Positions 1 through 59,244 of a stretch of DNA of 64,000 nucleotides are shown here, piece by piece. How positions within the stretch are numbered: the stretch's first letter is position 1; every line of letters starts with the position of its first letter. This DNA comes from Mobula hypostoma (lineage: Eukaryota), in assembly GCF_963921235.1 (NCBI RefSeq), contig NC_086097.1, forward strand, positions 26,972,001 to 27,036,000. Direction: 5' to 3'. Both the position numbers and the translations under genes were made by a program. The notes under the pieces were generated by a model. That model saw nothing but the letters and a program-made list of their open reading frames with translations. It was not told the DNA's origin and searched no databases.

Positions 1-903
1 GTTTACAAGCTGTGATACTTGCCAAAGGGGGTGTTACTAAGTACTAACTATGCAGGGTGCCCAAACTTTTGCTGCGGGCCCTTTTCCTTTTTTATTTTGA
101 AACCGTAAAAGATGGAAATAAGAAAGTAATCTTGCTTAAAATATTAAAGAAATGTGTTATCTTTAACTTTATGCCTTTAAAGAGAGCTTTTGTTACATTG
201 GCCTTTATTAATCAAAGTATTGAGTATAAGAGCTGGAACGTTATGATGAGGTTGTTTAAGGCATTGGTGAGGCCGAATCTGGAGTATTGTGTTCAGTTTT
301 GGTCACCAAATTACAGGAAGGACATAAATAAGGTTGAAAGAGTGCAGAGGAGGTTTACAAGGATGTTGCCGGGACTTGAGAAACTCAGTTACAGAGAAAG
401 GTTGAATAGGTTAGGACTTTATTCCCTGGAGCGTAGAAGAATGAGGGGAGATTTGATAGAGGTATATAAAATTATGATGGGTATAGATAGAGTGAATGCA
501 AGCAGGCTTTTTCCACTGAGGCAAGGGGAGAAAAAAACCAGAGGACATGGGTTAAGGGTGAAGGGGGAAAAGTTTAAAGGGAACATTAGTGGGGGCTTCT
601 TCACACAGAGAGTGGTGGGACTATGGAATGAGCTGCCAGATGAGGTGGTAAATACGGGTTCTTTTTTAACATTTAAGAATAAATTGGACAGATACATGGA
701 TGGGAGGTGTATGGAGGGATATGGTCTGTGTGCAGGTCAGTGGGACTAGGCAGAAAATGGTTTGGCACAGCCAAGAAGGGCCAAAAGGCCTGTTTCTGTG
801 CTGTGGTTTCTATGGTTTTGGAAATCAGTTCATCTTTTACTCGCTTCGCTATTCACAGTAACAGAAATTTTGACCGGGGTGCCCAAACTTTGGCATGCCA
901 CGG
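1..903 (+). mobile_element. 3' end of a Tc1/mariner DNA transposon (transposase C-terminus plus right IR/DR-type terminal repeat), split by a CR1 insertion
   Basis: Bases 3-47 read LQAVILAKGGVTKY*, a typical Tc1 C-terminus. The direct repeat GGGTGCCCAAACTTT occurs at 55-69 and 877-891. The element ends ...CACGG|TA at 903-905. Confidence 0.8.
179..816 (+). mobile_element. 5'-truncated CR1 LINE (ORF2 C-terminus plus 3' UTR)
   Basis: Translation contains LVRPNLEYCVQFWSP...RVQRRFTRMLPG...RTRGH-like...FFTQRVVGLWNELP. The 3' tail is TTTCTATGGTT. Confidence 0.9.
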
Positions 904-3913: not shown

Positions 3914-5329
3914 ACAGTAAATATGTATATAATAGCTAAATTACATAAGCAGTGAAATCGTGGGTTTGATGTCCTTTCAGAAATCAGAAGGCAGAGGGAA
4001 GGAAGCTGTTCCTGAAATGTTGAGTTGTGTCTTCAGGCTCCTGTATCTCCTCCCTGATGGTAACAAAGAGAAAGAAGGCATGTCCTGGGTGATGGGGGTC
4101 CATACAGATGGATGCCACCTTTTTGAGGCATCACTCCTTGAAGATGCTATGGAGTTTAAAATTGCCCCTTGGATCCCCTTAAAGTCTTTCCTCTCTGACC
4201 TTAAACCCATCTCTACCCTGGGATAAAAGTCTGACCGTCTACTTTATCCACTGGGGTTGGTTGGGGGGGGTGGTGCATCACAGTAGCATACGATTAACAT
4301 AACACTTTAACACGCCATCTCTGAGATCAGGGTGCAATTCCTGCCACTAGCTGTAAGGAATTTGTACATCCACTCCTTTCGGGTTTGCATTAATTCTACC
4401 CCTCTCAGAACTCTACCTTTGACACCAGATCTCAGTCCCTTCAAAGTGCCGTTTACCCTGTCCCTGACAGTGCTGGATCACCCATTTCCCACTGTCCCTG
4501 CCCCTGGTGAAAGTTCAGAGTTTCACCAATGTGCTGATTAGAATCACTGCTGTCACCATCAAATCTTGTGACAAGGTGATGTATGTATTGTTACCCACAC
4601 TAAATGCTCAAGTAGCTGAGCAGGTGAGGCAGGATCTATGGAGAGGAATAAACAGTTGATGTTTCAGGACGAGACCCTTGATCAGGACTGGAAAGGAAGG
4701 GGCATCCCACCTTCTCCCTCACCTGGTATCACCTCTCACCTGCTCTTGCTGAGTCAGCATTAAACTGATTCTTTTGTGTTTTATTCTCTAGTCTGTAATT
4801 ACATTAGGGTTTTGATGAGGCTGATTAGCCCTGACGCATCACTGTTCATGCAGTGTTCAATATTCATTTTCAATTTAGCAGAACCTACTTTCACTCAGTT
4901 TTTTTTGTTAAATTATGTTCCCTTTTTACTTTCCACAACTGAAGCTGAGTACATTACCATGCAGTGATGAAGGAATCTGTGTGGAAACATTAATTATGTG
5001 GCACCGAAAAGTCTCTGGTAACCGGGATTAGAGTAGGTGGCTAGCACAGACAGGTAGGGCTGAAGAGCCTGCGTCCGTGCTGATGACTCTGTTATCTTTG
5101 AGGTGTTTGGAATACTTTCACCCTTCTATTGACGTAAAAATAACTCGATCAGTTAGAGGGCACTACTGCACAGAAACAGGCCCTTCAGCCCATCTAGCCC
5201 ATGCTTAAAGTATTCTGCAAGTCATGCCAACCTGCACCTGGGCCATAGCCCTCCATACCCCGTCCCTCCAGGTACTTATCCAAACTTCTCTTAAATGCTG
5301 AAATTGGACCTACATCCACGAGGTTAGTT

Positions 5330-5650
5330 TTATTTGTCACACGAACATCATAACATCAAAAGAAACAGTGAAATGCGTCATTTTGTGTCACTGACCAAGG
5401 CAGTCCGAGATTGTGCTTTGGGCAACCCGCAAGTGTCGCCATGCTTCTGGCGCCAACATAACATGCCCACAACTGACATACCCTAACCTGTACGTCTTTG
5501 GAATGTGGGAGGAGGCTAGAACACCTGAAAGAAATCCATGCAGAAATGAGGAGAATGTACAAACTCTTTATAGGCAGCAGCAGGAATTTAACCCTGATCA
5601 GTGATTGCTAGAACTGTAAAGCAGTTGTGTTAATTGCCGCACTACCATGC
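5330..5650 (-). mobile_element. HE1/V-type tRNA-derived SINE (degenerate); similar copies near 12920-13180, 17170-17470, 30625-30920 and 61605-61880
   Basis: Contains the V-domain-like core GGTGCTCCGGTTTCCTCCCACA(T/G)TCCAAAGAC and a shared 3' ACATGTGACAAATAAA segment. Confidence 0.65.
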
Positions 5651-5654
5651 TGTT

Positions 5655-6045
5655 CCACTGTCCATTATCATTATCCATTATCCATCTCCATTGTTCATTA
5701 TCTATGATCCATCATCCACTATCGTTTTCCATCATTTGTTATCTATTGTCAATTATCCATTATCAACTGTCGATTTTCCATTGTCAATTATCCATTGTCC
5801 ATTGTCCATTATCATCATTGATTATCCATTGTCCATTTTCCATCGTCAATTGTCCATTGCCCATGATGCATTGTCCAATCTCTATTGTCTATTTTCCATT
5901 GTCTATTATCCAGTGTCCATTGTCCATTTTCCATTATTCATCATCCATTATCCATTATCTTTTATCAATTATCCATTGTCCATTGTCTACTGTCCATTAC
6001 CCATCTGTCCATTATCTGTTATCCATTGTCTATCTCCTTCAGTTA
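5655..6045. repeat. Degenerate ~7-bp tandem repeat (TATCCAT/TGTCCAT)
   Basis: TCCAT-containing units recur over about 390 bp. Confidence 0.85.
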
Positions 6046-6204
6046 TCTCAGCTTATCATTTTTGGGGTGTCCAAATACATTAACACCTGCCCCTTGTCAG
6101 AGCTGTTACCAAAGCATTGTCCTCTACCCAAACGCTGTTCTATCACCATATTCACAGTCTCTCCACTCACTATCTACTCCATTCTGAACTACCCCCGTAT
6201 TCAT

Positions 6205-7879: not shown

Positions 7880-8043
7880 TCCAATCTCTTACTAACTCTT
7901 CCTTCAGTTAGTCCTGACGAAGGGTCTCGGCCTGAAATGTCGACCGTACCTCTTCCTAAAGATGCTGCCTGGCCTGCTGCGTTCACCAGCAACTTTGATG
8001 TGTGTTGCTTGAAATTCCAGCATCTGCAGTATTCCTGTTGTTT
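7880..8043 (+). mobile_element. Penelope-derived short element with hammerhead motif (7910-7945)
   Basis: Reads AGTC-CTGACGA-AGGGTCTCGGCCT-GAAATGTC-GACC, then the family tail GATGCTGCCTGGCCTGCTG...CCAGCATCTGCAG. Confidence 0.75.
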
Positions 8044-9704: not shown

Positions 9705-9936
9705 CAAGCAACACACACCAAATGTTGGAGGAACTCAGCAGGCCAGGCAGCATCTGTGGAGAAGAGTATTGTCGATGTTTCAGGCCGAGACCCTTCAGTG
9801 GGTCTTGCTGAAGGGTCTCGGCCCGAAACATCGACTGTACTTTTTACCGTAGATGCTGCCTGACCTGCCGAGTTCCTCCAGCATTTTGTGTGTGTTGCTC
9901 GGATTTCCAGCTTCTGCAGATTTTCTCTTGTTTATG
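9705..9936. mobile_element. Fold-back Penelope-derived element with decayed hammerhead motifs
   Basis: Inverted arms of about 90 bp centred near 9800. Perfect 12-bp TSD ATTGAGATGTTC at 9693-9704 and 9937-9948. Confidence 0.8.
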
Positions 9937-11074
9937 ATTGAGATGTTCTATTTTATTAAGATTGTTTCCTTTTGTTTTTATTGAGTACTTAAGGCATAAA
10001 GTAAAAGTAAACCATATACGTTTTCAAAGTGCCTTAATGTCCTATCCCAATAGTATTGGATGAGCTCGCTTGGGGAGGAAGTGGAATAATGAAATGGATG
10101 ACTATCTTATGGAAAGTATGCAAGTGGAATGAGAGATTCAGCTGTAATTTAGCAATGTCCTGAGGGATAAGATTTAAGGACTAATCATACAGTGAGCATC
10201 AGTCCTGGATATTATTCCACACCCACTGTGGGGAATCTTTTTTTCTGACATCAAATGATAAACAGGGGATTGGTTTATCTGCCTGAATTTCCAGATCAAA
10301 TAATACTTTAATGGGCTGTGTGGAGGGATTCTGATGGCTGCAGGGCTGGTTTAGTTGGGACCACCCAGTGCCTCAATGGTTAATAGCTCCCTGGGGCCAC
10401 TCATTTGTAAACACGTGCCTGTGTATTAACACAAGAGATTCCTTATCCACAAATTTCTTCATAGATGCTAGAAATCTGAAGTATAAACAGCATCTGTGTA
10501 CGGAGAAATATATTTAACATTTCAGTAGATCTGAAACATTCCATCCCCAAATAAAAACAGAAAATGCGAGAGACAATAAACGTATCAGGCATGTTATCTG
10601 TGGATAAAGCAGAGTTGACAGAAAACCAGCTCATCATTTCCCTCTGGTGTCAACATGCTTCCCTTTCCTCCATGGTCCACTCTCCTCTCAATAGCAGAAT
10701 CCTCCTTCTTCGCCCTGATCATCCCCTAGCTTCTTACTTGAACTTCCCCCCTCCCTGATCCTCGATGGTGGGGAGGGTTGTACCCATGATGGGGCTGGTT
10801 GAGTCTACAACCTTCTACAGCCTCTTGTATTCCCTTGCATTGGAGCCTCCACGCCAGGCATTGATGCAACCAGTCAGCATGGCCTCCACAGTACATCTAA
10901 GAACCTTTGGTGACATACCAAATCTCCTCAAACTCCTAATGAAGCAGAGCCTCTGACACGTCTTCTTCATGACCGCTTCAGTGTTTTGGGACCAGGGTAG
11001 ACCCTCTGAGATGCTGGTGCCCGAGAGCTTGAATCTGCTCACCCTTCCACTGCAGACTCCTCAATGAGAATTGG

Positions 11075-11317
11075 AACACGAGGAAATCTGCAGATGCTGG
11101 AAACTCAAGCAACACACACAAAAGATGCTGGTGAACGCAGCAGGCCAGGCAGCATCTATAGGAAGAGGTACAGTTGAGGTTTCGGGCCGAGACCCTTCGT
11201 CAGGACTAACTGTTAGTAGTTAGTCCTGACGAAGGGTCTCGGCCCGAAACGTCGACTGCACCTCTTCCTATAGATGCTGCCTGGCCTGCTGCGTTCACCA
11301 GCATTTTTTGTGTGTGT
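11075..11317. mobile_element. Fold-back Penelope-derived element with two back-to-back hammerhead motifs
   Basis: Near-perfect inverted arms of about 100 bp (11111-11211 and 11218-11318). TSD TCAATGAGAA(T/C)TGG at 11061-11074 and 11318-11331. Confidence 0.85.
11222..11257 (+). ncRNA. Minimal type-I hammerhead ribozyme motif (Penelope type)
   Basis: Helix I AGTC/GACT, core CTGACGA(A), helix II GGGT-CTCG-GCCC, then GAAA. Palindromic ACGT replaces helix III, followed by the GUC cleavage triplet at 11251-11253. Confidence 0.75.
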
Positions 11318-11854
11318 TCAATGAGAACTGGTGTGTGTTCTCCTGACTTCCCCTTCCTGAAGTCCACAATCAACTTCTTGGTCTTACTGAGGAATTGATA
11401 GTGGACTTCCAGAAGGTGAACGTGAGGTTATTGTTGTGACACCACTCAACTGGCCAATCCATCTCGCCCCCGGACACCTCCTCATCGCCATCTGTGGTTC
11501 TACCAACAACCGTGGTTCGGTCTCACAGCCCTGTAGTTCCATGGTCAGGACATTGGCACCAGCTTTCTAATTCCAGAAGTTATATCAATGATTCTGGTCA
11601 AGAAGGTTAAAACACAAGGTATCCAAATGTGTGGGCAGACTAGACACAAAACCGGCTTGGTGATGGGAGTGGTGGAGGGCATTCTTCCGACAGGAAGTCT
11701 GTCACCAGTGATATACTGCAGCGATTGGTGTCGGGGCCATTGTTGTTCGGAATATATAGGAAGTGATTTGGATGAGAATGTTGGTGGTCTGATTGGTAAG
11801 TCTGAAGACCAGGTAAAACATTTTGGGAGGTCAAATTCTGGTTTGGTGTTGGTC

Positions 11855-20351: not shown

Positions 20352-21238
20352 GTTTCGGGATGACCACTCCAGCCACCGCTGGTGGGAAGATCTTCCTCAT
20401 ATTCTACGGCCTGGTCGGCTGCGCGGCCACCATCCTCTTCTTCAACCTCTTCCTGGAGCGGCTGATCACGGTGCTGGCCTACGTACTGAAGACCTGCCAC
20501 GAGAGGCGGCTGAGGCGCAGTGGTGTGCGGCCGCAGCTGGACTGCCAGGATGGCGGGGCCAGGCTTGGGGCCCGGGCCGACAGCCTGGCTGGCTGGAAGC
20601 CCTCTGTCTACTACGTTATGCTGATCCTCGGCCTGGCCGCCCTCACCATCTCCTGCTGCGCCTCGGCCATGTACACTCCCGTGGAGGGCTGGAGTTACAT
20701 GGACTCCATCTACTTCTGCTTTGTGGCCTTTAGCACCATAGGTTTTGGTGATCTGGTCAGCAGTCAGAACAGGAGGTACGACCATCAGGGATTCTACCGC
20801 TTTGCCAACTTTCTCTTCATCCTGATGGGAGTGTGTTGTATTTATTCACTGTTTAATGTTATAGCCATTGTTATTAAGCAGTTCCTCAACTGTACTTTGA
20901 GGAGGCTGGAGTGTAGATGCTGCCAACGGTGTCAGCGTAAACTCCTCCAGCCGGGCCGTAACGCAGTGACGCCCAACGTTCTCCGCGCCAACAGGAAGAC
21001 CTCGGCCGAGAGCAACGTGGCCGACTGCCGCAGGCAATCCGGAGAGATGATCTCCATCCGCGACTTCCTGGTCGCCAACAAGGTCTCGCTGGCCATCATG
21101 CAGAAGCAGCTGATGGAGACGGCGAGTGGACACCCGAGGGCAAGCGGTCCTAGCCCCCGCCCCAACGGCTTTAGCGAGGGGGTCGGAGCACTCGCCATCA
21201 TGAACAACAGGCTGGCGGAGACCAGCGTGGACAGATGA
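20352..21238 (+). CDS. KCNK13: Terminal coding exon of two-pore-domain K+ channel THIK-1 (second half of P1 filter, M2, M3, P2, M4, C-tail)
   Basis: The acceptor TTCATTGCAG|GT TTC GGG ATG completes GFG in phase 1. The peptide reads MTTPATAGGKIFLIFYGLVGC...DSLAGWKPSVYYVMLIL...FSTIGFGDLVSSQ...AIMNNRLAETSVDR*. KIFLIFYGL, SVYYV and the ETSxDR end fit recalled THIK-1 better than THIK-2. Confidence 0.92.
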
Positions 21239-25924: not shown

Positions 25925-27040
25925 AAGCTTGGCCTCAATACCTCCTCGTGCAATTGGATCCCCGATTCCCTCATGTAAAACCCCAGACAGTTCAACATCT
26001 CCTCCGCAATCTCCATCAGCACAGGTGCACACAAAGCTGTGTGCCTAACCTCCTGCAATACTCACATCATGCTTCTGACTGTGAGACTGAGCACAGTTCC
26101 AATGCCATATTTAAGTTTGCTGACGACACTATCATTGTTGACAAAATCAAAGGTGGTGATAAATCAGCATGTAGGAGTGAGATTGAAAAGCTGGCCAAGT
26201 GGTGCCACAACAACAACCTCTCGCTCACTCAACGTCAGCAAGACCAAGGAGCTGATTATTCACTTCAGGAGAGGGAAACCACAGGTCCATGAGCCAGTCC
26301 TCATAGGGAGATCAGAGGTGGAGAGGGTCCTCAACTTTAAATTCCCCTGTGTTACCATTTCCTGGGCCCAGCACGTAAATGTATTCTTAGAAGTTTGTGA
26401 AAATTTGGCACGGCATCTAAAACTTTTACTAACTTCTATAGATGTTTGGTGGAGAATATATTGACCAGTTGCATCATGGCCTGGTATGGAAACAGTTATG
26501 ACATTGAATGGAAAATCCTATAAAAATTAGTGGATATGGCCCAGTCCATCCCAGGTAAAGACCTCCCCTCCATTGAGCACTTCTACATGGAGCGCTGCCA
26601 CAGGAAAGCAGCATCCATCATCAGGGACCCCCACCACCCAGGCCATGCTGTCTTCTCACTGAGCTCAACAAAAAGAAGGTCCCAGGACACACACTACCAG
26701 GTCCAGGAACAGTTGTTACCCCTCAACCATCAGGCTCTTGTACCGGTGGGGATAACTTCACTCACCCATCACTGAACTGTTCTCATAGCCTGTGGACTCA
26801 CTTTCAAGGACTCTTCATCTCAAGTTCTCAATATTTATTGCTTATTTATTTTTTTTCTCTTCTTTATTTGCAAAGTTTGTTGTCTTTTGCTCATTGGTTG
26901 TTTGTCCACCCCATTGGGCGCAGTCTTTCATTGATTCTGTTGTGGTTCTTGGATTTACTGAGAATGTCTGCAAAAAAAAATGAATCTCAAGGTTGTTTAT
27001 GGTGACATATATGTACTTTTTGCAATAAATTTACTTTGAA
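25925..27040 (+). mobile_element. Rex1/Babar LINE RT plus 3' end, degenerate
   Basis: Translation includes SNAIFKFADDTIIV, LNVSKTKELIIHFRR and ASIIRDPHHPGHAVFSL. Tail AATAAATTTACTTTGAA. Confidence 0.85.
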
Positions 27041-27800: not shown

Positions 27801-29179
27801 CAAGAATCTGGAACAGAAGTCGGCCGTCATTCAAGATCTTGGTTGATGTTCTATCCTATCACCATTTTAAAAAAAGATTAACTATATTTGTCATGTGTAC
27901 ATTGAAACATAGAGTAAAATGTGTCGTTTGTATCAACAAGCAACTGTTTGAGGATGTGCTGGGAGCAGCCCACAAAGGTTGCCGTGCTTCCTGCACCAAC
28001 ATAGCATGTTATAAATCCTAGAATTGGGTCATTCAGCCCATCTAAACTTCCTCACTTAAAGCACATTACAGCAGTCAATAAGAAAATGTTTGCTTTTAGT
28101 TGATGCCTTTGTAGATTTACAGCCACTGATATGCTTTTTAAAGTGCAGTCACAACTGTGAAGCGAGAAAATCAGAAACCACGAAGATCCCAGCAATAGAT
28201 AATAAGACCATAAAACATAGGAGTAGAATTAGGTCATTTGACCCATCACGTCTGCTCTGTCATTCCATCATGGCTGATTTATTATCCCCCTCAACCCCAT
28301 TCTTCTGCCTTCTCCCTGCAACTGTTGACGCCTTTACTAATCAAAAACCTATCAACCTCAGCTTTAGATATACCCAGTAACTTTTCCTGCACAGACGTCT
28401 GTGGCAATGAATTCTTCAGGTTCTCCACCCTCTGGCTAAAGAAATTCCTCCTCATTACTGTTCCGAAGGGACATCCTTGTATTCCGAGGTTGTCCCCTCT
28501 GGTCCTAGACTCCCCTACTATAGGAAACATCCTCTCCATGTCCACTGTATCTATGTTAGCTCTATTTCAGTAGCTTTCAATGGGATCCCTCTCATTCTTG
28601 GAACCAGACTGGTGTAGCTGTGGAGTTCTCCCTCTGTAACTAGTACATCTCTTCCTGGGTCAGAAGTAGGAAGAGAAGAAAGAAAGGTTAGCTTTATTTG
28701 TCACATGTACATTGAAACAGACAGCAAAATGCATTGCTTGTGTCAAAGCAAACCAACAGGAATTGAGATGGGCTGCCGGCAAGTATTGCCACACTTCCAG
28801 TGCCAACGTGGTGGTTGTCAGTCATGTCAGATGATGACGGCAGACCTGTGTGGGAGAGTTTTAATGTGGAAAAGCCTTTGTGCTGAGGCAGTCCCACTCT
28901 CTCAATCAGGGAAGTCCAGGTCCAGTGGTATGAACAAGGGTCACAAACTGGAGTCTTCCTTGGTTACAGTGGATGACCATGATGTCTTCTGTGCCTTGTC
29001 ACAGCCTTTGTTCTCCGGGCGCAGTCTCACCAAAGCCCCACACTGTTGCAGTAGAACTTTGCCACCTTTCTACTCAAATCGTCTTGTGGTAACATACCCC
29101 GTGACATCGCAGTCACTTGTTGACTTTCAGTGACTTGTAGAGAGTATAAAATGGCTAAGCGTTAGGTACAGATGGATGG

Positions 29180-30565
29180 TTAAAGATGTACAGCACAGAA
29201 ACAGACCCTTCAGCCCATCTGCTCCATGCTGACCACAGCATCCCTTCAAGTTCCAGTTGCCTGTGTTCAGCCTTTAACTCTACAAGCAGCACCCCCACAC
29301 CCTCCATGTACCTATCCAAATTCCTCTTAAACTCTACAAGCACCACCCCTACATCCTCCATGTACCTATCCAAATTCCCCTTAAACTCTACAAGCACCAC
29401 CCCTACACCCTCCATGTACCTATCCAAATTCCTCTTAAACTCTACAAGCACCACCCCCACACTCTCCATGTACCTATCCAAATTCCTCTTAAACTCTACA
29501 AGCACCACCCCCACACCCTCCATGTACCTATTCAAATTCCTCTTAAACGCTACAAGCACCACCCCCACACCCTCCATGTACCTATCCAAATTCCTCTTAA
29601 ACTCTACAGCACCACCCCCACACCCTCCATGTACCTATCCAAATTCCTCTTAAACTCTACAAGCACCACCCCTACACCCTCCATGTACCTATCCAAATTC
29701 CTCTTAAACTCTACAAGCACCACCCCTACACCATGTACCTATCCAAATTCTTCTTAAACTCTACAAGCACCACCCCCACACCCTCCATGTACCTATCCAA
29801 ATTCCTCTTAAACTCTACAAGCACCACCCCCACACCCTCCATGTACCTATCCAAATTCCTCTTAAACTCTACAAGCACCACCCCCACACCCTCCATGTAC
29901 CTATCCAAATTCCTCTTAAACTCTACAAGCACCACCCCTACACCCTCCATGTACCTATCCAAATTCCTCTTAAACTCTACAAGCACCACCCCCACACCCT
30001 CCATGTACCTATCCAAATTCCTCTTAAACATTGCAGTTGTACCCTCCTCAACCTCTCCCTCCAGCTTCTCATTCCATGCGCTCACTCTCTTCTGTGTAAA
30101 GAGGTTACCTCTCAGGTAGCTTTTCAATCTTTTGCCTCTTGTAGCTGTACCCTATCATTTTGGAGTCCCCCAACCCTGGGGAAAAGACTATGACCTCCCA
30201 CCTTATCCATATCTGTCATGATTTTATAAACTTCTGTGAGGTCACACCTCATTTTCCCAAGCTCGAAGCAATAAAGATCCAGCATGGCCAACTTCTCCCA
30301 ATAACTCAGGCCCTCTAGTCCAGGCAGCGTCCTTGAAAAAAACTCTTTTGTGTCTTCACTAGATTGGCGGCGTCTTTCCTATAACAAAACCACAGGTAAT
30401 ACTCCAAGTGCATCCTTACCAATGACTTACATAACTGCAACATAATGTCCCCACTACTGAACTCAATGCCCTGACTGATGGAGGTCAGCATGCTAAACAT
30501 CTTCTTCACCACCCTGTCTACTTGTGTGGCTCCTTTCAGCAATCCCTGCTCTTGTACTCCCATGG
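29180..30565 (-). mobile_element. CR1 3' fragment containing an internal tandem amplification
   Basis: Translation includes QVDRVVKKMFSML, LVRMHLEY and NLFTQKRVSAWNE...FKRNLDRYM. Confidence 0.85.
29274..30028. repeat. 54-bp minisatellite, about 14 copies
   Basis: Unit TTAAACTCTACAAGCACCACCCCCACACCCTCCATGTACCTATCCAAATTCCTC, with few substitutions between copies. Confidence 0.95.
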
Positions 30566-32941: not shown

Positions 32942-35206
32942 TAGGGGTCACCAACCTGTCGATCTTTGAGGCTTTCCCAATAGATCCCGAAGAAAAATCA
33001 AAAATAAATACACAAATACTGTTGTAATGTGACCATTATAAAAGTAAGTAATACTAATTAGGATAATGGTAATATAGCAATATTTTCGCTAAAAAGCTGT
33101 TTGTAAAGAGAGATTGTTTCCGGGTTGTGGGGGTTTAGTTCCGTACTTTCTGCCCAGTGTCATGTCTGTAGTTCCCCCCGCCATGCACCACGTTTTCAGC
33201 GTAGCCTGTGCTGCATCAAAGTGACCGATCAGATTAGATAAGAGTACAGACTGTCGCAAACATCAATATACGTCACTGTCCTCAACCTCCGGGCCGCGAA
33301 GCATGCAGGGGTGCAGCGGTAGTCAGGATGCACACAGCACATCTTTAAGAAAAAAAGCCGAAATAAACAAGCTGATTAATTAGGTGCCGCCCGGCACGTA
33401 AATGTCGGGTCAGGTCAGAGGCAATGCAATCGACAATCACTCGTGATATCCTGATAGCATAGTGGAGGTTCCACGAAAGAAGGCGAAAACATACAAATTC
33501 CATCCAGAATGGGAAGAGGAATTCCTGTTTACCTTGGTGAAAGACAAGTGTGTACGTATGTTGTGCCACCAAACACAAGCACTGACTAAAAGAGGGAATC
33601 TGGAGCGGCACCACAACACCAACCACCAGAAATTTAAAGACACCTACCCCCCAGAGAGCGCAATTCGTGCCAGGAAAGTTGAGCTGAAATCGGGGTTGAA
33701 GGCCCAGCAATCGTTTTTCACAAAGCATGCTGCTCAAAATAAGGCTGCTATTGAAGCATCATTTCGTGTAAGTCACCTTTTGGTCAAACACAAGAAGCCC
33801 TTTACAGATGCCGATTTATGCAAGGAAGCAATGGTCATTACCGCAGAGACTGTTTTTAATGACTTTAAAAACAAAAACGGCATCACAACCGCTATACATA
33901 ATATACGGCTTGGCCCTGCAGCAGTGACAAGGAGGGTAGAGTCACTGTCAGAGGGCGTGAATATTTTTCACTACAGTTCGATGAATCCCTGGATGTAATG
34001 CAAACAGCTCAGCTTGTTGTATTTGTCGGAATGGCTTTCCAGGATTTGACGTTTGTACAACAAAGGAGGACTTCCTCACTCTTTTGCAATTAAAGGAAAG
34101 AACGAGAGGTGAGGATATTTACAATGAGTTTAAAAAAATATGTCCGTGAAAATGACATCCCCATTCATAAACTGGTGGCAATTACTACTGATGGGGCCGA
34201 GCAATGCGCGGTGTGCGCGTTGGTTTTATACCACTAAAAGTCAGTGCCTACTTCGGGTCAACTTATCTGTGTGAAATTGCATTTTCACAGATGAAAATTA
34301 TTAAATCTAAGTACAGGAGCTGACTTACTGACAGACACCTCACTAGAGTTGCCAATTTTCTCACTCCCAAATAATGGACAAAAGTAGCAGTCAAATCCCG
34401 GATCATTTGTGTTTACCCCGAGAAAGACTACCATGACCATGAAGTCTTGTGCGGGTACCTGTGTGCGCATGCGCATACGTGCTGAATTTTTTTTACCCCA
34501 TGAATCGGTTTTGGCTTAATTTTCATTATTCGTACTTTATATAGGCTGTGTATTTATTATATCATTCCTGCTTTTACTATATGTTAGTGTTATTTTAAGT
34601 TTTATGTGTTATTTGGTATGATTTGGTAGGTTATTTTTTTGGGTCTGGGAATGCTCAAAATATTTTTCCCATATAAATTAATGGTAATTGCTTCTTCGGC
34701 GTAAAGCATTTCGGCACGAAAGGTTTCATTGGAACGTTCTACCTTAGCGGGGGGAATACGGGACAGTTGGCAACCCTACACCTCACAGACTGTCTCAAAC
34801 TGGCTGTCTGTAGTTATGAGCCAAATTTCAGGGAACTAGCAGAAAGTATTCAGCCCCAGTCATCACACTGAGTGCAACAGTCAATTTTTATTCATTTATT
34901 TTTTGTGTTGAAATAAAACTAAATAATGAAACTTAGAATTAAAGGTGTGAAGTATTGTAATATTCTTAAAGAAAAACAGCTATGGCCTGTTTGATATGCT
35001 AGTTACAGTGTTTTCTTTTTTGAATTAATTTGAAAGTTTGACAGAAGTATTTTTTGTAATTCAAATACAATTCACCCAAATAAAAGGCCTCAAATTGGAA
35101 GTACAATCTGAGCTGTTTTTTTCTCTAAACGATTTAGTAGGTAGATCTTGCCTTTTACTGAGGTCGAGGTAAGGGATCTTGGGCTTAAAAAGGTTGGTGA
35201 CCACTA
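32942..35206 (+). mobile_element. hAT (Charlie/Buster-like) DNA transposon, internally deleted transposase
   Basis: TIRs TAGGGGTCACCAACCT / AGGTTGGTGACCACTA and 8-bp TSD GTGTACTG at 32934-32941 and 35207-35214. Protein fragments: FHPEWEEEFLF...C..C...NLERHH, KHKKPFTD, ITTDG, FGSTYLCEIAFSQMKIIKSKYRS. Confidence 0.92.
34344..34778. mobile_element. hAT-type MITE nested in the transposase C-terminus
   Basis: TIRs TAGAGTTGCCAA / TTGGCAACCCTA and 8-bp TSD CACCTCAC at 34336-34343 and 34779-34786. Confidence 0.88.
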
Positions 35207-35404
35207 GTGTACTGTTTGTTATTTTGCAGTACTGATTTGTAACAGGGGACACATCGCGCAGCATCCACCCAAACGAGATTTCTTAAGTTTGGCCAGACCG
35301 GGGGCTATCATCCCCTATATTGAGCCGCTAGCTGAACTGAGAGTTACACATCGATATTCCACAATGCATTGACAAATATTGGAAGAGTCAATGTGACATG
35401 CCAT

Positions 35405-35700
35405 TGATATGAACACCAATTTCTCCAACTTCTGGTCATTTCTCCCTGCTCCCTCCTTCTCCCTTTTTCCATTCCCCATTTTGGTTCCCCTCTCGCCCCT
35501 TCTCTTCTGTTCAACTGCTCATCACCTCCCCTCTGGTTTCTCTCCTCTTTTTACCTTCTTCCATTGTCCACTGTCCTTTCCTGTCAGATTCTTTCTTCAG
35601 CCCCTTCATCTTTTCCACCTATCACCTCCCAGGTTCTTATTTCATCCCCCCTCACCTGGTCTCACCTATTACCTGCCAGCTTGTACTTGTACCCCCTCAC
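35405..35700 (+). mobile_element. Probable Penelope 3' region (ORF end MNTNFSNF plus pyrimidine-rich tract)
   Basis: The tract CCCCTCACCTGGT.TCACCT also occurs at about 4715-4735, beside a hammerhead-type arm. Confidence 0.5.
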
Positions 35701-54600: not shown

Positions 54601-54884
54601 TGCAGCAATGTAACCAGGATGCTATTCCATCTTTGGACTTCATGACATCAATGTTCTGACACTAACCAAGATAAAGAGCAAAAAAAAACAGAAATAAAGG
54701 AAGTTTTGAAATACCAAGTGTCGTGGGAGGTATAAAGAAAGCAAAAGGGAAGGATTGTGATAGACTGGAAATGAGGTCTTCTTGGGCATAAAATTAAAAT
54801 TTGATAGAAACTATGGCCAGTCTAAATCCAACCTGGCCACAGTCAATCAAAGCCCACTATGATCACAGCCAATCCAAATCCATA

Positions 54885-55058
54885 AACACGAGAGATTCTA
54901 TGGATGCTGGAAATCCAGAGTAGCACACTAAGATGCTGGAGGAATTCAGCAAGTCAGGTGGCGTCAATGGAGAGGAATAAACAGTCGATATCTCAAGCCG
55001 AAACTCAAGATTCTGATTAAGGGTCTTGGCCCGAAACGTCGACCGTTTACTCCTCTCC
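54885..55058. mobile_element. Fold-back Penelope-derived element with decayed hammerhead
   Basis: Arms ATGGAGAGGAATAAACAGTCGA / TCGACCGTTTACTCCTCTCCAT. Core reads CTGATTA-AGGGTCTTGGCCC-GAAACGTC. Confidence 0.75.
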
Positions 55059-57739
55059 ATATACGAGTTCATCCAGATCTTGTATTTGTCAATCCAAGTC
55101 TATCTTGAACCACAGCCAATTAAAGCCAACGTCACCACCACCAATCCACACCCAACATACACTCACCGATACTGGAGCAACTTCTTCCCCTCGGCACCTG
55201 ATTTCTGAATGGACATTGAACCCATGTACAGTACCTCACCACCTTTTATATACTCACTTTAATTCACGTTTTCTCTATTATTATGTATTTCATTGTACTG
55301 CTGCTGCAAAGACAACAAATTTCATGACGTATGCCGGCGATATTAAACCTGATTCCGATTCTGACTCAGTTATCACAAAGCCAACGTGACCACAGTTTAT
55401 CAGGATGCTGCCTGGATGAGAGGGTATGAGATTTTAGGAGAGGTTGGACAAACATGTGGTTGTTTTCTCTGGAGGACGAGGGAAGACCTGAAAGAAGTTA
55501 TAAAATCATGAGTGGCAAGGATAGGGCAGATACTCAGAATCGTTTCTCCATGGAGTAGAAATCTCAAGTATTAGGGGAACTACATTTATGCCGAGGGGAG
55601 TAAAAGGTTAAAAGGCATGTGGGACAAGTGTTTGTGAGGCTTGTGTGACCAGTCTTTTACACACAAAATGGTGGGTGTCTGAAGCACTCTGCTGGGCTGA
55701 TAGAACAGATACAACAGTAATGTTTAAGACGCATTTAGCCAGAGACATGAACATGCAGGGAATGGGGGATATGGACCAGCTGCAGGCCGATGGAATCAGT
55801 TAGATTGCTATCCTGGTCAGTGCAGACGTGATGGGACGTAAGAAGCTGCGGATGCTGGAATCTGGAGCAATCTGCTGGAGGAACTCAGCGGGTCGAGGAC
55901 TGATGACGGCGAGTCCAGAGAGGTCACAGTCCGTGAGTCTCAACCAGTGGCTGGAGGTTTTGGAGGGCCAAGGACTCCAGAGTCTGTGTGTGTGTGAGCG
56001 GCGAGTGGGATGGCGGGAAAGGAGCTTGTTTTCCTGTTTTGTTGTTGTCACTGCTACAACATCGAACAGTACAGCACAGTCCAGGTCTTCCAGGCCACAG
56101 TGTGGTGCTGACTTTTAACCTGCTCGAAGGTCAATCTAACTCCTCCCTCCTGCATAGCCCTCCAGTTTTCTTTCACCCATGTGCCTGTCTAACCTACTTA
56201 AACCCATCACCCCCGCTGGGGCTTTGACCACAGAGTCCTCCAACCTGGGCCAGTCCTTTCTAGCTCTGTCATCAGGCGTAACCTATTTTGTAAGTCCTCT
56301 AGGCGAAGATTCCTTCCCCTCGCAGAGTTGAGATCTGTCGATGTTTCTGTGGATTTTAATGGGATGGGGTTGCTACCATGTCCAACCCTCCCCCTTTAGC
56401 AGCCGGGCTTGGGAGTGTCCATGGCAGAGCTCTGAGCCTGCCTAAGATTCTCCCTAGAGTATCTGCCTCCACCGCGATCCCAGGCAGTAAGTTCCATGCA
56501 CCCACCACCCTGCCTCTAAAAACCTCAACTGTGACATCACTCCTATACCTCCCTCCAATTGTCTTAAAATTCTGCCCTCTTGTATTCCACCCTGGGGAAA
56601 GGTCTGTGGCCGCCCACTCGACCTCTGCCTCCTATCATCTCCACTGTGTCACATCTCACCTTCCTTCGCTCCAAAGAGTTGTTGCTTGCGTTGTTCCGCT
56701 GAACCTGCTGGGCTTGCTATGTTGGTACTGGGACGTGTAGTGATTCTTGCAGGCTGCCCCCAGCACACCCCTGCGCGTGTTGGCTGTTGACGTGAACGAC
56801 ACACCTCACTGTACGTGTGATTAATAAATAAATAAGTCCGAAACAGTCAGCAGAAAGGGATAGTTGACAGTTTGAGTAGAAACTCTACATCTGGACTACG
56901 AGTGGCAAGGCGAGACAGCCGATATAAAGAAGAGAGGGGGAGTGGTAAGACAGGAGTCTGTGTGGCTGATGGACTGAGGAGGGGTAAGTGATGTTGGGCA
57001 GGTTGTGGCAGGTAGGAGAGGGAGGCAGGGCTGGAGTTGGAGTTAGAGGAAGGTACTGTACAACTGAACGGTTTCCTAAGCCACTTCAGAGAGCAACTAA
57101 AATCAACCAATTGTTCTGATGCAGCTCAATCGGCCCAAAACGCTGACCATCCCTTTTCTCCCACATGCTGCTGGATTCACTGAATTCCTCCATCAAGTTG
57201 TTTGCAGCTTAAAGGTTAGCTATGAATTAAACATAAGTGAAAGGGAAATGGGCCCAATGGCTTCCTTTCTGTCATCTCATCTTCTCCCTTCCTTTTCAGT
57301 CCTAAAGAAGGATTTCTGCCCAAATCGCCACCAGTTTGTTCATTTCCATCCACGCTGAATTCTTCCATCTGTGTTACTTTGGCTTCCTTATATAACGTTT
57401 TATTTTATTTTCCAACAAAGGACAAAATATGAAAGCAACAGTTTTCTGAAGTTTGAAATACTGGGTCACCACTGCTGCTAAATGGACAACGGTTACCATG
57501 GCAAAATGTGCACACTTCCCCACATCACTTTCCCCTACTGATTGCTTACTGGAGAGAAATAACAGGTTGAGCTCAAGCCCTTTGTGAAAATTTACATCAG
57601 AATCACAGCAATGGTGAGCAGTAAATCACAGCAGGTGCTGTGTATTGGCATGAATCTGCAGCAACCCCGATTGTTAAACCTCCGCACAAGCGCTTTGTTC
57701 TGACCATTGTGCTGAGTGTTGATCCTCTGCTCTCTGCTG

Positions 57740-57774
<35 letters not shown>

Positions 57775-57936
57775 TATGTGTTGGTGTGTGTGTGTATGTG
57801 TGTGTGTGTGTGTGTGCGTGTGTGTGCGTGTGTGTGTGTGTGTGTGTGTTGGTGTGTGTGCGTGTGTGCGTGTGTGTGTGCGTGTGTGTGTGTGCGTGTG
57901 TGCGTGTGCGTGTGTGTGTGTATGTGTGTGTGTGTG

Positions 57937-57971
<35 letters not shown>

Positions 57972-57973
57972 TG

Positions 57974-58021
<48 letters not shown>

Positions 58022-58175
58022 GCGTGTGTGTGTGTGCGTGTGTGTGTGTATGTGTGTGTGTGTGCGTGTGTGTGCGTGTGCGCGCGCGTGTGTGTGTATG
58101 CGCGTGTGTGTGTGTGTGTGTGTGTGTGCGCGTGCGTGCGTGCGTGCGTGTGTGTGTGTGTGTGTGTGTTGGTGT
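57740..58175. repeat. Long interrupted (TG)n/(CG)n microsatellite, about 435 bp
   Basis: Directly visible in the sequence. Confidence 0.97.
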
Positions 58176-59244
58176 TGCAAAGAATTGGGACTTTTGGGCT
58201 CCAAGGGCATGGAATCAGGCTCGTTGGCCCAAGATTCCCATTTGCCCGTATTTAGCCCTGTGATCCCTCTGAACCAGGGGATCCCAATCTGGGGTCCATG
58301 AGCCTTCTGGTTAACGGTAGGGGTCCATGGCATGAGAAAGGTTGATAAGCCCTGCTCTAAACCTTTCCTATTCATTCATCTGTCCAAATACTTTTTTAAT
58401 GCTTCCACCACTTCCTCCGGCGGCTCGTTCTATGTACTTCTGGGCAAAAGAAGTGTCCCCCAAGTTTCTATTAATCTCTTCCCTCTCACCTTAGACCTAT
58501 GCCCTCCAGTTCCCATTCTGACTCTTCAGTCCCCAACCCTGAGAAAAAGACTGTTTACATTCACTCTATCTACGTCCATTACCATTCTATACACCTCTCG
58601 GTCCCCTGCATGCCCGATTCTCATTACTACCATCAGGAAGGAGATACAGAAGCCTGATAACACACACTCAGAGCTTCTTCCCTCTGCCATCAGATTTCTG
58701 AACGATTCATGAACCCATCAAAATTGCCTCACTTTTTGTACTACCTGCATTTGTTATTGTAACTGTTAGTAATTTTTTTATGGATTGCATTGTGCTGCTG
58801 CCACAAAACAACAAATTTCATGACGTGTCAGTGACAATAAACCTGATTCTGAATCTGATGATGTGCCAAAGGAAAAAGTCTCAAACTGCCCAACCCTCAT
58901 CTATAACTCCATCCCTTGAGCCCTGACAACATCCCCATAAATCTCTGCACTCTCCCCAGCTTAATGGCATTTTCCCCACAGCAGCGTGAGCAAAGCTGAA
59001 CACGATATTCCAAATGCTGCCTCCCCAACGTCTTGTACAATTGACCATCGGCCGTCCGATTACAATATCCAGACACAAGAGACTCCAGATGTTGGAATAT
59101 GGAGCAGCACACAAAGTGCTGGAGAAATTCTGTGGGTCGGTAATTTGAGCAGGTCCTCCTCTTCCATAGGTACTGCCTCACATGTTCAGTTCCTTCAGCT
59201 CTTTGTGTGTTGATCCATTTACACCAATCCTACACCTGTTTGTT

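What the first reader, a model, noticed from the sequence alone, without database searches (positions are those of the whole stretch)
11075..11317. 243-bp fold-back mobile element carrying two back-to-back minimal hammerhead ribozymes
Seen: near-perfect inverted arms of about 100 bp and a 14-bp TSD with one mismatch. The + strand has an intact AGTC-CUGACGA(A)-GGGU CUCG GCCC-GAAAC-GUC-GACU. The - strand has a mirror copy with GAAAC CUC. Known: Penelope-like elements carry minimal type-I hammerheads whose palindromic helix III remnant is thought to require dimerisation. Inference: this non-coding unit inserted in one event, so a transcript from either strand contains a hammerhead together with its own antisense. 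That would be a ribozyme locked in a hairpin, sitting in what is probably the KCNK13 intron.
Basis: partly seen in the sequence, partly recalled or inferred. Interest (0 to 1): 0.75.

Follow-up and report, generated by a model that had tools for sequence, protein, structure and literature searches.

The report
Truncated fold-back Penelope retroelement insertion
The 243-base hairpin is real, but it looks like the usual leftover of a Penelope-type jumping gene (two short copies of its end joined head to head), with one intact and one broken hammerhead-ribozyme motif, an arrangement already described in other animals.

Summary
The anatomy is confirmed. Two 100-bp arms are 96/100 identical, the 14-bp target-site duplication is real (empty site seen in a paralogous LINE), and a minimal hammerhead at 11222-11257 (+) fits the published consensus. 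The minus-strand copy is mutated at G16.2 and G1.1 and fails the descriptor, so there is one intact motif, not two. One arm carries an extra 37-nt 3' end. Inverted 5'-truncated copy plus 30-40-bp tail plus TSD is the described insertion unit of Penelope-like elements, and opposite-strand pairs of minimal hammerheads were reported in 2014. The window holds 12 insertions of this family; all three two-armed ones have a tail on one arm and different centres. Best reading: a dead-on-arrival Penelope-type insertion made by priming from both target ends. Folding predicts the ribozyme is locked in the hairpin, a by-product of the geometry. No RT/GIY-YIG frame could be linked, so membership rests on structure. 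Read depth leaves room for a few dozen copies sharing this centre, so movement as a unit is not excluded. The scan found the same kind before, in this genome and in others. Interest is low.

The parts
11061..11074 (+). Left copy of the 14-bp target-site duplication (the copy that differs from the paralogous empty site at one base)
11075..11111 (-). 37-nt 3' 'tail', present only on the left arm; ends 101 nt downstream of the hammerhead cut site
   Evidence: 616 contigs of X1 have unlike loose ends at 11075, i.e. a shared family end
11112..11212 (-). Left arm: inverted, 5'-truncated copy of the element's terminal repeat
11172..11207 (-). Degenerate minimal hammerhead: substitutions at G16.2 (11178) and G1.1 (11175); predicted inactive
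11212..11217 (.). 6-nt centre between the arms; repeats the first bases of the right arm and also occurs in the element body 9 nt further upstream; junction scar
11218..11317 (+). Right arm: sense, 5'-truncated copy of the terminal repeat without tail; ends about 65 nt downstream of the cut site
11222..11257 (+). Intact minimal type-I hammerhead motif; helix I 11222-25/11254-57, core 11226-33, helix II 11234-37/11242-45, predicted cut 11253/11254
   Evidence: consensus in Fig. S3 of PMC4209133
11318..11331 (+). Right copy of the target-site duplication
10855..11480 (-). Older, frameshifted LINE 3' coding fragment that received the insertion (approximate limits of the part examined)
   Evidence: paralogues at 1764-1978 and 26235-26484; the paralogue frame 1638-2135 hits PF09004
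7880..8043 (+). Sister single-arm copy of the same subfamily (91/100 identical to each arm) with tail and about 25 nt more of the element body, including a 7-bp hairpin just 5' of helix I
9705..9933 (.). Second fold-back of the family: tail on the right arm, 15-bp TSD, different centre (left arm begins inside the catalytic core)
54884..55089 (.). Third, older fold-back: tail on the left arm, 14-bp TSD, third kind of centre
20353..21238 (+). Last coding exon of a THIK-type K2P channel (best match KCNK13); context only

Best explanation
A dead-on-arrival insertion of a very abundant Penelope-like retroelement (PLE) family of a cartilaginous-fish-type genome, reduced to the end of its terminal repeat. 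Most likely route: a PLE RT/endonuclease supplied in trans nicked both strands of an old LINE copy 14 nt apart. Each free 3' end primed reverse transcription on element RNA at one of two internal start sites about 37 nt apart (+101 and +65 nt from the hammerhead cut site). Both cDNAs ran through the uncut hammerhead and stopped about 36 nt upstream of the cut site. They were joined head to head, probably helped by a 7-bp inverted repeat that the element carries there, and fill-in gave the TSD. Each arm has a hammerhead only because the motif lies in the terminal repeat. In any transcript the antisense arm is made first, so the motif is base-paired and silent; one copy has since decayed. SHOWN: anatomy, TSD, tail, family, motif state, predicted folding. 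INFERRED from published PLE biochemistry: the enzyme, double priming, and the joining step.
For: Anatomy. The tail is 37 nt and on one arm only. 12 of 14 arms measured end in two clusters, +64..73 (6) and +100..102 (6); two end elsewhere, at +93 and +17. The ruler itself ends at +102, but five long ends abut a TSD. All 3 two-armed insertions in the window have the tail on exactly one arm and three different centres. TSDs of 9-15 bp flank 6 of 11 insertions tested.

Literature. Inverted pLTR with optional 31-bp tail and TSD (PMC3846280). Inverted 5'-truncated copy plus 30-40-bp tail drawn as the typical arrangement (PMC8557442). An anole PLE protein nicks and extends both strands, starts at two internal RNA sites that bound the tail, and uses uncut RNA (PMC11167929). 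Dual minimal hammerheads about 100-700 bp apart on opposite strands (PMC4209133).

Decay. Only 1 of 15 arms in the window passes the descriptor. There is no covariation above shuffles among the 15 arms (143/500 shuffles as high). CpG positions of the core carry other letters in about 8-41% of summed depth in X1.
Against: No RT or GIY-YIG frame was tied to this repeat. A motif scan of the window, Pfam on 10 nearby or paralogous frames, and two protein searches with an open frame through the sister arm returned only host gene models that have absorbed the repeat, or unrelated proteins. A clean snap-back or annealing at the 7-bp hairpin would leave its 8-nt loop in the centre; the centre instead holds a 6-nt copy of the stem, so a further slip must be assumed. 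In run X1, contigs continue through the centre at summed depth 2100-4500 (11215-11218) and 965 (11230-11232), against 11-27 on unique flank, so other copies may share a similar centre. 5 of 11 insertions tested showed no convincing TSD.
Confidence: 0.82

Rival explanations
1. The fold-back propagates as a unit: a palindromic non-autonomous PLE derivative (MITE-like retroposon) whose transcript is copied from the tail end through the centre by PLE enzyme, so that daughter copies share this centre.
For:: summed depth through the centre is about 36-90 times the unique flank in X1 at 11230-11232 (965 against 11-27), but about one copy's worth in X5 (32 against 53) and X9 (6 against about 10). The tool warns that summed depth is no copy number. 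Most arms in the window start within about 20-45 nt upstream of the cut site, as short source RNAs would give.
Against: 3 of 3 fold-backs in the window have different centres, and 9 of 12 insertions are not two-armed at the nhmmer level. The listed centre variants in X1 differ by 1-2 nt (table 4), as independent junctions at a hotspot would. Depth at the centre is below 0.1% of depth on the arm (5-12 million). The 7-bp hairpin in the element body explains a hotspot without clonal spread.
Confidence: 0.12
2. The hairpin-locked ribozyme has been kept by the host as a regulatory device in the KCNK13-like intron (conditional self-cleavage, or an editing or dsRNA substrate).
For: The only intact motif among 15 arms lies on the gene's sense strand. 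Domesticated intronic hammerheads are known in amniotes (PMC6155905, passages).
Against: Two core mutations on one arm against none on the other is within chance for 4 arm differences. The motif is the minimal, dimer-dependent type, with no monomer cleavage reported. Helix formation is predicted at 1e-22 or less in context. Such insertions occur about once per 5 kb in this window.
Confidence: 0.03
3. A single-arm insertion was later turned into a palindrome by a local inverted duplication during replication or repair, or two independent copies landed back to back.
For: A small local inverted duplication exists 30 bp away in the host LINE (11348-11420), and the centre looks like a slippage scar.
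Against: One TSD pair encloses both arms with no loss of flank. The short arm stops at the family's second end cluster. The same one-sided-tail pattern recurs in two other fold-backs.
Confidence: 0.03

Closest known systems
Insertion unit of endonuclease-positive Penelope-like elements: pLTR plus adjacent inverted 5'-truncated copy, 30-40-bp tail, TSD (PMC3846280; PMC8557442; PMC2377424)
   Same: Head-to-head inverted copies with 3' ends outward, tail on one arm only (37 nt), TSD, no poly(A), inverted part of varying size between copies.
   Different: Here both copies are cut down to 100-138 nt, with no ORF left. TSDs run 13-15 bp in 5 of the 6 seen, against 8-10 bp in the rotifer examples. 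The autonomous partner was not identified.
Minimal type-I hammerheads of metazoan PLEs (Cervera and De la Pena 2014, PMC4209133)
   Same: The + motif fits the printed consensus at every position: CUGANGAH, G10.1-C11.1, GAAA, palindromic 15.2-16.2 with no loop 3, UH, 4-bp helix I. Close opposite-strand pairs were reported there (S. mansoni; bracovirus PLE, Fig. S4A).
   Different: No cartilaginous fish appears in their Table S1 or the Fig. S3 rows that I read. The two cores here are only about 20 nt apart, closer than the 100-700 bp quoted.
Poseidon element of Anolis carolinensis studied in vitro (PMC11167929)
   Same: Two internal RT start sites downstream of the hammerhead bounding a tail; both target strands extended; uncut RNA is the substrate. 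Distances are of the same order (111-118 nt from helix II there; about 84 and 120 nt here).
   Different: Different sequence family; clade not determined here; no ORF start at helix II in this subfamily.
Non-LTR retrozymes (bioRxiv 10.64898/2026.07.22.740005; PMC7229834, listing only)
   Same: Short non-coding, hammerhead-bearing, PLE-related repeats, also found in the one chondrichthyan sampled.
   Different: Retrozymes are head-to-tail tandem repeats that allow dimer cleavage; this unit is head to head, which blocks it.
MITEs / fold-back DNA transposons (defining features recalled)
   Same: Small, non-coding, hairpin-forming, high-copy, TSD-flanked.
   Different: The ends are not a matched inverted pair (37-nt overhang), TSD length varies, single arms insert alone, and centres differ.

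Membership tests
Minimal type-I hammerhead of PLEs | CUGANGAH core, helix II closed by G10.1-C11.1, GAAA-N-N'-U-H, helix I of 3 bp or more: + strand copy | tested here: met
   (1 hit in the window, 0 in 200 shuffles); consensus
Minimal type-I hammerhead of PLEs | Same features, including the palindromic 15.2-16.2 pair: minus strand copy | tested here: not met
   G16.2 and G1.1 substituted
Minimal type-I hammerhead of PLEs | Compensatory changes in helices across copies | tested here: inconclusive
   15 arms, covariation 0.166, 143/500 shuffles as high; few, closely related, decaying copies
Minimal type-I hammerhead of PLEs | Self-cleavage after N17 as a dimer or with protein help | not testable with these tools
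   needs an in vitro assay
Rfam hammerhead families | Covariance-model hit | tested here: not met
   none; these models expect a helix III (recalled), so the miss says little
EN+ Penelope-like element insertion | Inverted 5'-truncated copy adjacent to the 5' end | tested here: met
EN+ Penelope-like element insertion | 30-40-bp tail on one end only | tested here: met
   37 nt here; two 3'-end clusters in 12 of 14 arms; same pattern in 3 of 3 fold-backs
EN+ Penelope-like element insertion | Target-site duplication and no poly(A) | tested here: met
EN+ Penelope-like element insertion | Hammerhead within the terminal repeat | tested here: met
EN+ Penelope-like element insertion | Repeat is the pLTR of an element with a telomerase-like RT and GIY-YIG ORF | tested here: inconclusive
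   no linked ORF found; no genome held; the prokaryotic and viral collections hold no match
MITE / fold-back DNA transposon | Matched terminal inverted repeats and fixed TSD length | tested here: not met
   37-nt one-sided overhang; TSDs 9-15 bp; single-arm copies with their own TSDs
MITE / fold-back DNA transposon | Copies share one internal sequence | tested here: inconclusive
   3 of 3 centres differ in the window, but one search suggests some copies with a similar centre elsewhere
Non-LTR retrozyme | Head-to-tail tandem of two or more hammerhead units | tested here: not met
   units are head to head

The most novel reading that the evidence does not exclude
A subset of these fold-backs is a self-propagating palindromic retroposon. 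A 7-bp hairpin at the 5' edge of the hammerhead programs where the inverted copy is joined, and the resulting ribozyme-locked hairpin RNA is itself copied by Penelope enzyme in trans, having spread to some dozens of loci in this lineage only. Even without clonal spread, junction and tail statistics over the very many copies would show directly how PLE inverted repeats form (two primed ends annealing, or one cDNA snapping back), a step still open in the literature read.
Probability: 0.12. Interest if true: 0.5.

Novelty: new member of a known kind. Interest (0 to 1): 0.15.

Why it matters
As a single locus it matters little: it is a compact example of the known Penelope insertion form, in a family for which my paper searches found no description in rays or sharks. 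Its value is as data. Frangieh et al. leave second-strand synthesis and resolution unvalidated, and a family with about one insertion per 5 kb, clear TSDs, two end classes and scorable junctions could test that step from genome sequence alone. If such fold-backs are common in introns, they are also a large source of near-perfect dsRNA in these animals (inference, untested).

Tried and rejected
Rfam: no hammerhead family hit locally or in the window; the 7 weak local hits (E 0.46-8) are unrelated families far below their gathering scores.

Collections: no whole genome held. Pattern scans of viral, metagenome (twice) and GTDB collections gave 0 matches.

Search for the autonomous ORF. Recalled PLE motifs in six frames gave only chance hits. 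Pfam on 10 frames gave no RT or GIY-YIG. An open frame through the sister arm (P0001) found 1 of 11 candidates, a Mobula birostris CoA-synthase model starting with the repeat. Among 1.84 billion representatives it found 5 hits: two host gene models that contain the repeat and three unrelated repetitive proteins. The cluster look-up for those two could not be made.

Expression: no RNA holder listed. X16 (RNA by guess) holds the family but has no depth on the unique flank at 10710-10749; this is no evidence either way.

Presence in the related organism B: undecided. X5 has the orthologous left flank, but no listed piece bridges the junction and most joint rows were not shown. Only the left flank, left arm and centre were laid, so the right arm was not examined in reads.

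Covariation among window copies: none above control. A cofold of two isolated + motifs gave extended intermolecular pairing that I could not read as the active dimer; secondary-structure energy cannot test this.

Papers: Lunse et al. on PLE hammerhead dimers is not held; I saw only its title in a reference list. Searches for Penelope with twin priming and with A-to-I editing gave nothing relevant by listing.

Rejected: 'two working ribozymes', MITE, retrozyme.

Full report
OBSERVATION. The insert spans 11075-11317. Its arms, 11112-11211 and 11218-11317, are identical at 96 of 100 positions and fold as one hairpin (-219 kcal/mol, z -28, 0 of 200 shuffles as stable). A 14-bp direct repeat with one mismatch flanks it; a comparable repeat was found at 4 of at most 3000 random positions. 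It is a real target-site duplication: with the insert and one copy removed, the flanks align across the junction to a paralogous LINE at 26235-26328 (72%, E 1e-9), and one LINE reading frame runs through the site. So both arms arrived together, into an older LINE fragment.

THE HAMMERHEADS. The + strand motif (11222-11257) fits the consensus that Cervera and De la Pena give for minimal PLE hammerheads (PMC4209133; main text parts 1-2 of 4; supplement parts 1-2 of 3): 4-bp helix I, CUGACGA with the extra unpaired base, G10.1-C11.1, GAAA-C-G-U-C with a palindromic 15.2-16.2 pair and no loop 3. My descriptor finds it once in the 64-kb window and never in 200 shuffles. The minus copy does not pass: G16.2 (11178) and G1.1 (11175) are substituted, which removes the palindrome needed for dimer helix III and the pair closing helix I. 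Contigs of public runs laid on the left arm read the intact letters in about 80% and 77% of summed depth in X1, and as the majority in the other three runs. So there is one intact motif and one decayed one. Rfam has no matching model.

LOCKED FOLD. Helix II of the + motif forms with probability about 0.99 in the isolated arm and 3e-22 once the left arm is present. It stays negligible at every nascent length from 11245 to 11400. Because the arms point outwards, a transcript of either strand makes the antisense arm first.

THE FAMILY. nhmmer with the left arm gives 15 hits at E<=0.007, forming 12 insertions, plus 5 weaker hits. In one search, 73,848 contigs of run X1 were laid on a 583-bp stretch, with summed depth of 5-12 million on the arm against 11-27 on unique flank. 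The tool warns that this is no copy number, but it agrees with the window's density of about one insertion per 5 kb. The repeat is abundant in the runs of three organisms laid, and it occurs in a Mobula birostris gene model, so a ray-type host is the natural inference.

Measured from the cut site, 6 of 14 arms end at +100..102 and 6 at +64..73; two end elsewhere. The focal insertion has one of each, giving a 37-nt extension on the left arm only. The two other two-armed insertions (9705-9933, 54884-55089) also carry the extension on exactly one arm, have 14-15-bp TSDs and have different centres; in the first, one arm begins inside the catalytic core. TSDs of 9-15 bp were found at 6 of 11 insertions tested, including single arms; 5 gave none convincing. 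Only 1 of the 15 arms keeps a complete motif, and the alignment shows no covariation above shuffles.

WHAT IS KNOWN. This is the described insertion form of endonuclease-positive Penelope-like elements. Arkhipova et al. 2013 (PMC3846280, parts 1-3 of 5) describe an adjacent inverted pLTR, an optional 31-bp tail on one of the inverted copies, and 8-10-bp TSDs. Craig et al. 2021 (PMC8557442, passages) call the inverted 5'-truncated copy and the 30-40-bp one-ended tail typical. Schostak et al. 2008 (PMC2377424, passages) note inverted repeats that vary in size between copies and a 34-37-bp end repeat. Frangieh et al. 2024 (PMC11167929, parts 1-2 of 4 and passages; supplements not seen) show that an anole PLE protein nicks and extends both target strands, starts reverse transcription at two internal sites that bound the tail, and uses uncut RNA; its hammerhead cleaves only with protein. 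Cervera and De la Pena already report pairs of minimal hammerheads about 100-700 bp apart on opposite strands, and a truncated PLE with a second motif on the opposite strand at its 5' end; a single motif did not cleave and dimers cleaved weakly. I found no paper on this family in rays or sharks, but the library is incomplete and repeat databases were not searched. A 2026 preprint (10.64898/2026.07.22.740005, part 1 of 5 and passages; supplements not seen) finds tandem retrozymes in one chondrichthyan; this unit is not tandem. PMC6765202 and PMC6155905 were read as passages. Lunse et al. is not held.

MECHANISM. Most likely (0.82 for the insertion type; the steps are inferred), a PLE enzyme acting in trans nicked both strands 14 nt apart. 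It primed one cDNA from each end at the two internal start sites, copied through the uncut ribozyme, and stopped about 36 nt upstream of the cut site; the two cDNAs were then joined. The sister copy at 7880-8043 (91/100 identical to each arm) shows a 7-bp inverted repeat just 5' of helix I, exactly where both arms stop, which offers microhomology for annealing or snap-back. Against a clean version of this: the centre does not hold the 8-nt loop of that hairpin but a 6-nt copy of its stem, so an extra slip is needed. Double priming and single-cDNA snap-back cannot be told apart from this copy.

WHAT IS NOT SETTLED. First, no RT/GIY-YIG frame was linked to the repeat, so PLE membership rests on four structural hallmarks and the clade is unknown. 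Second, in X1 contigs run through the centre at summed depth 2100-4500 (11215-11218) and 965 (11230-11232), far above unique flank, whereas X5 and X9 show about one copy's worth at 11230-11232. The listed variants differ by 1-2 nt, which fits a junction hotspot, but a small clonal burst of fold-backs cannot be excluded (0.12). Third, the gene context: a THIK-type exon, best match KCNK13 from residue 113, lies 9 kb downstream on +, and none of 29 upstream + frames of 85 aa or more has a Pfam hit. The insertion is therefore probably intronic, with the intact motif on the sense strand; this assumes the first exon lies before the window. Nothing points to host use (0.03).

EARLIER NOTES. My reading was stated before the first look-up. 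Notes on other windows of this genome and on two windows of other genomes reach the same class of explanation; they are unchecked AI notes and not counted as support.

VERDICT. A real feature, correctly spotted, and an ordinary member of a known kind. Interest 0.15.

Noticed in passing
window 7890-7911 (+): A 7-bp inverted repeat with an 8-nt loop lies just 5' of the hammerhead in the sister copy and overlaps the 5' strand of helix I. It could compete with the ribozyme fold, and it marks where both focal arms stop.
   Followed up: partly
window, 12 insertions of the family: Nearly all copies begin within about 20-45 nt upstream of the hammerhead cut site, at the 5' edge of the ribozyme rather than at the cut. 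RT stalling there or short source RNAs could explain it.
   Followed up: partly
window 4593-4750: An antisense arm is followed directly by a pyrimidine-rich stretch that matches 35649-35676 (89% over 28 nt). Probably an inverted arm plus a piece of element body; 35400-35700 may be a longer decayed body fragment (resemblance recalled, no Pfam hit).
   Followed up: partly
P0002, P0003, P0004: Three predicted host proteins contain the translated sense arm in the same frame, suggesting cryptic splice sites around the hammerhead or gene-model errors. In D. virilis the PLE intron ends at helix I.
   Followed up: no
window 11348-11420: Small local inverted duplication (31-nt arms, 81%) inside the host LINE, 30 bp right of the insertion.
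   Followed up: no
window 20353-21238 (+): Intact last coding exon of a THIK-type K2P channel, best match KCNK13.
   Followed up: partly
window 33447-33998 (+): 183-aa frame that looks like the N-terminal part of a hAT-family transposase (resemblance recalled).
   Followed up: no
window 29155-30190, 5620-6200, 57600-58300: Long tandem or low-complexity arrays, the first apparently built from a LINE 3' end unit.
   Followed up: no
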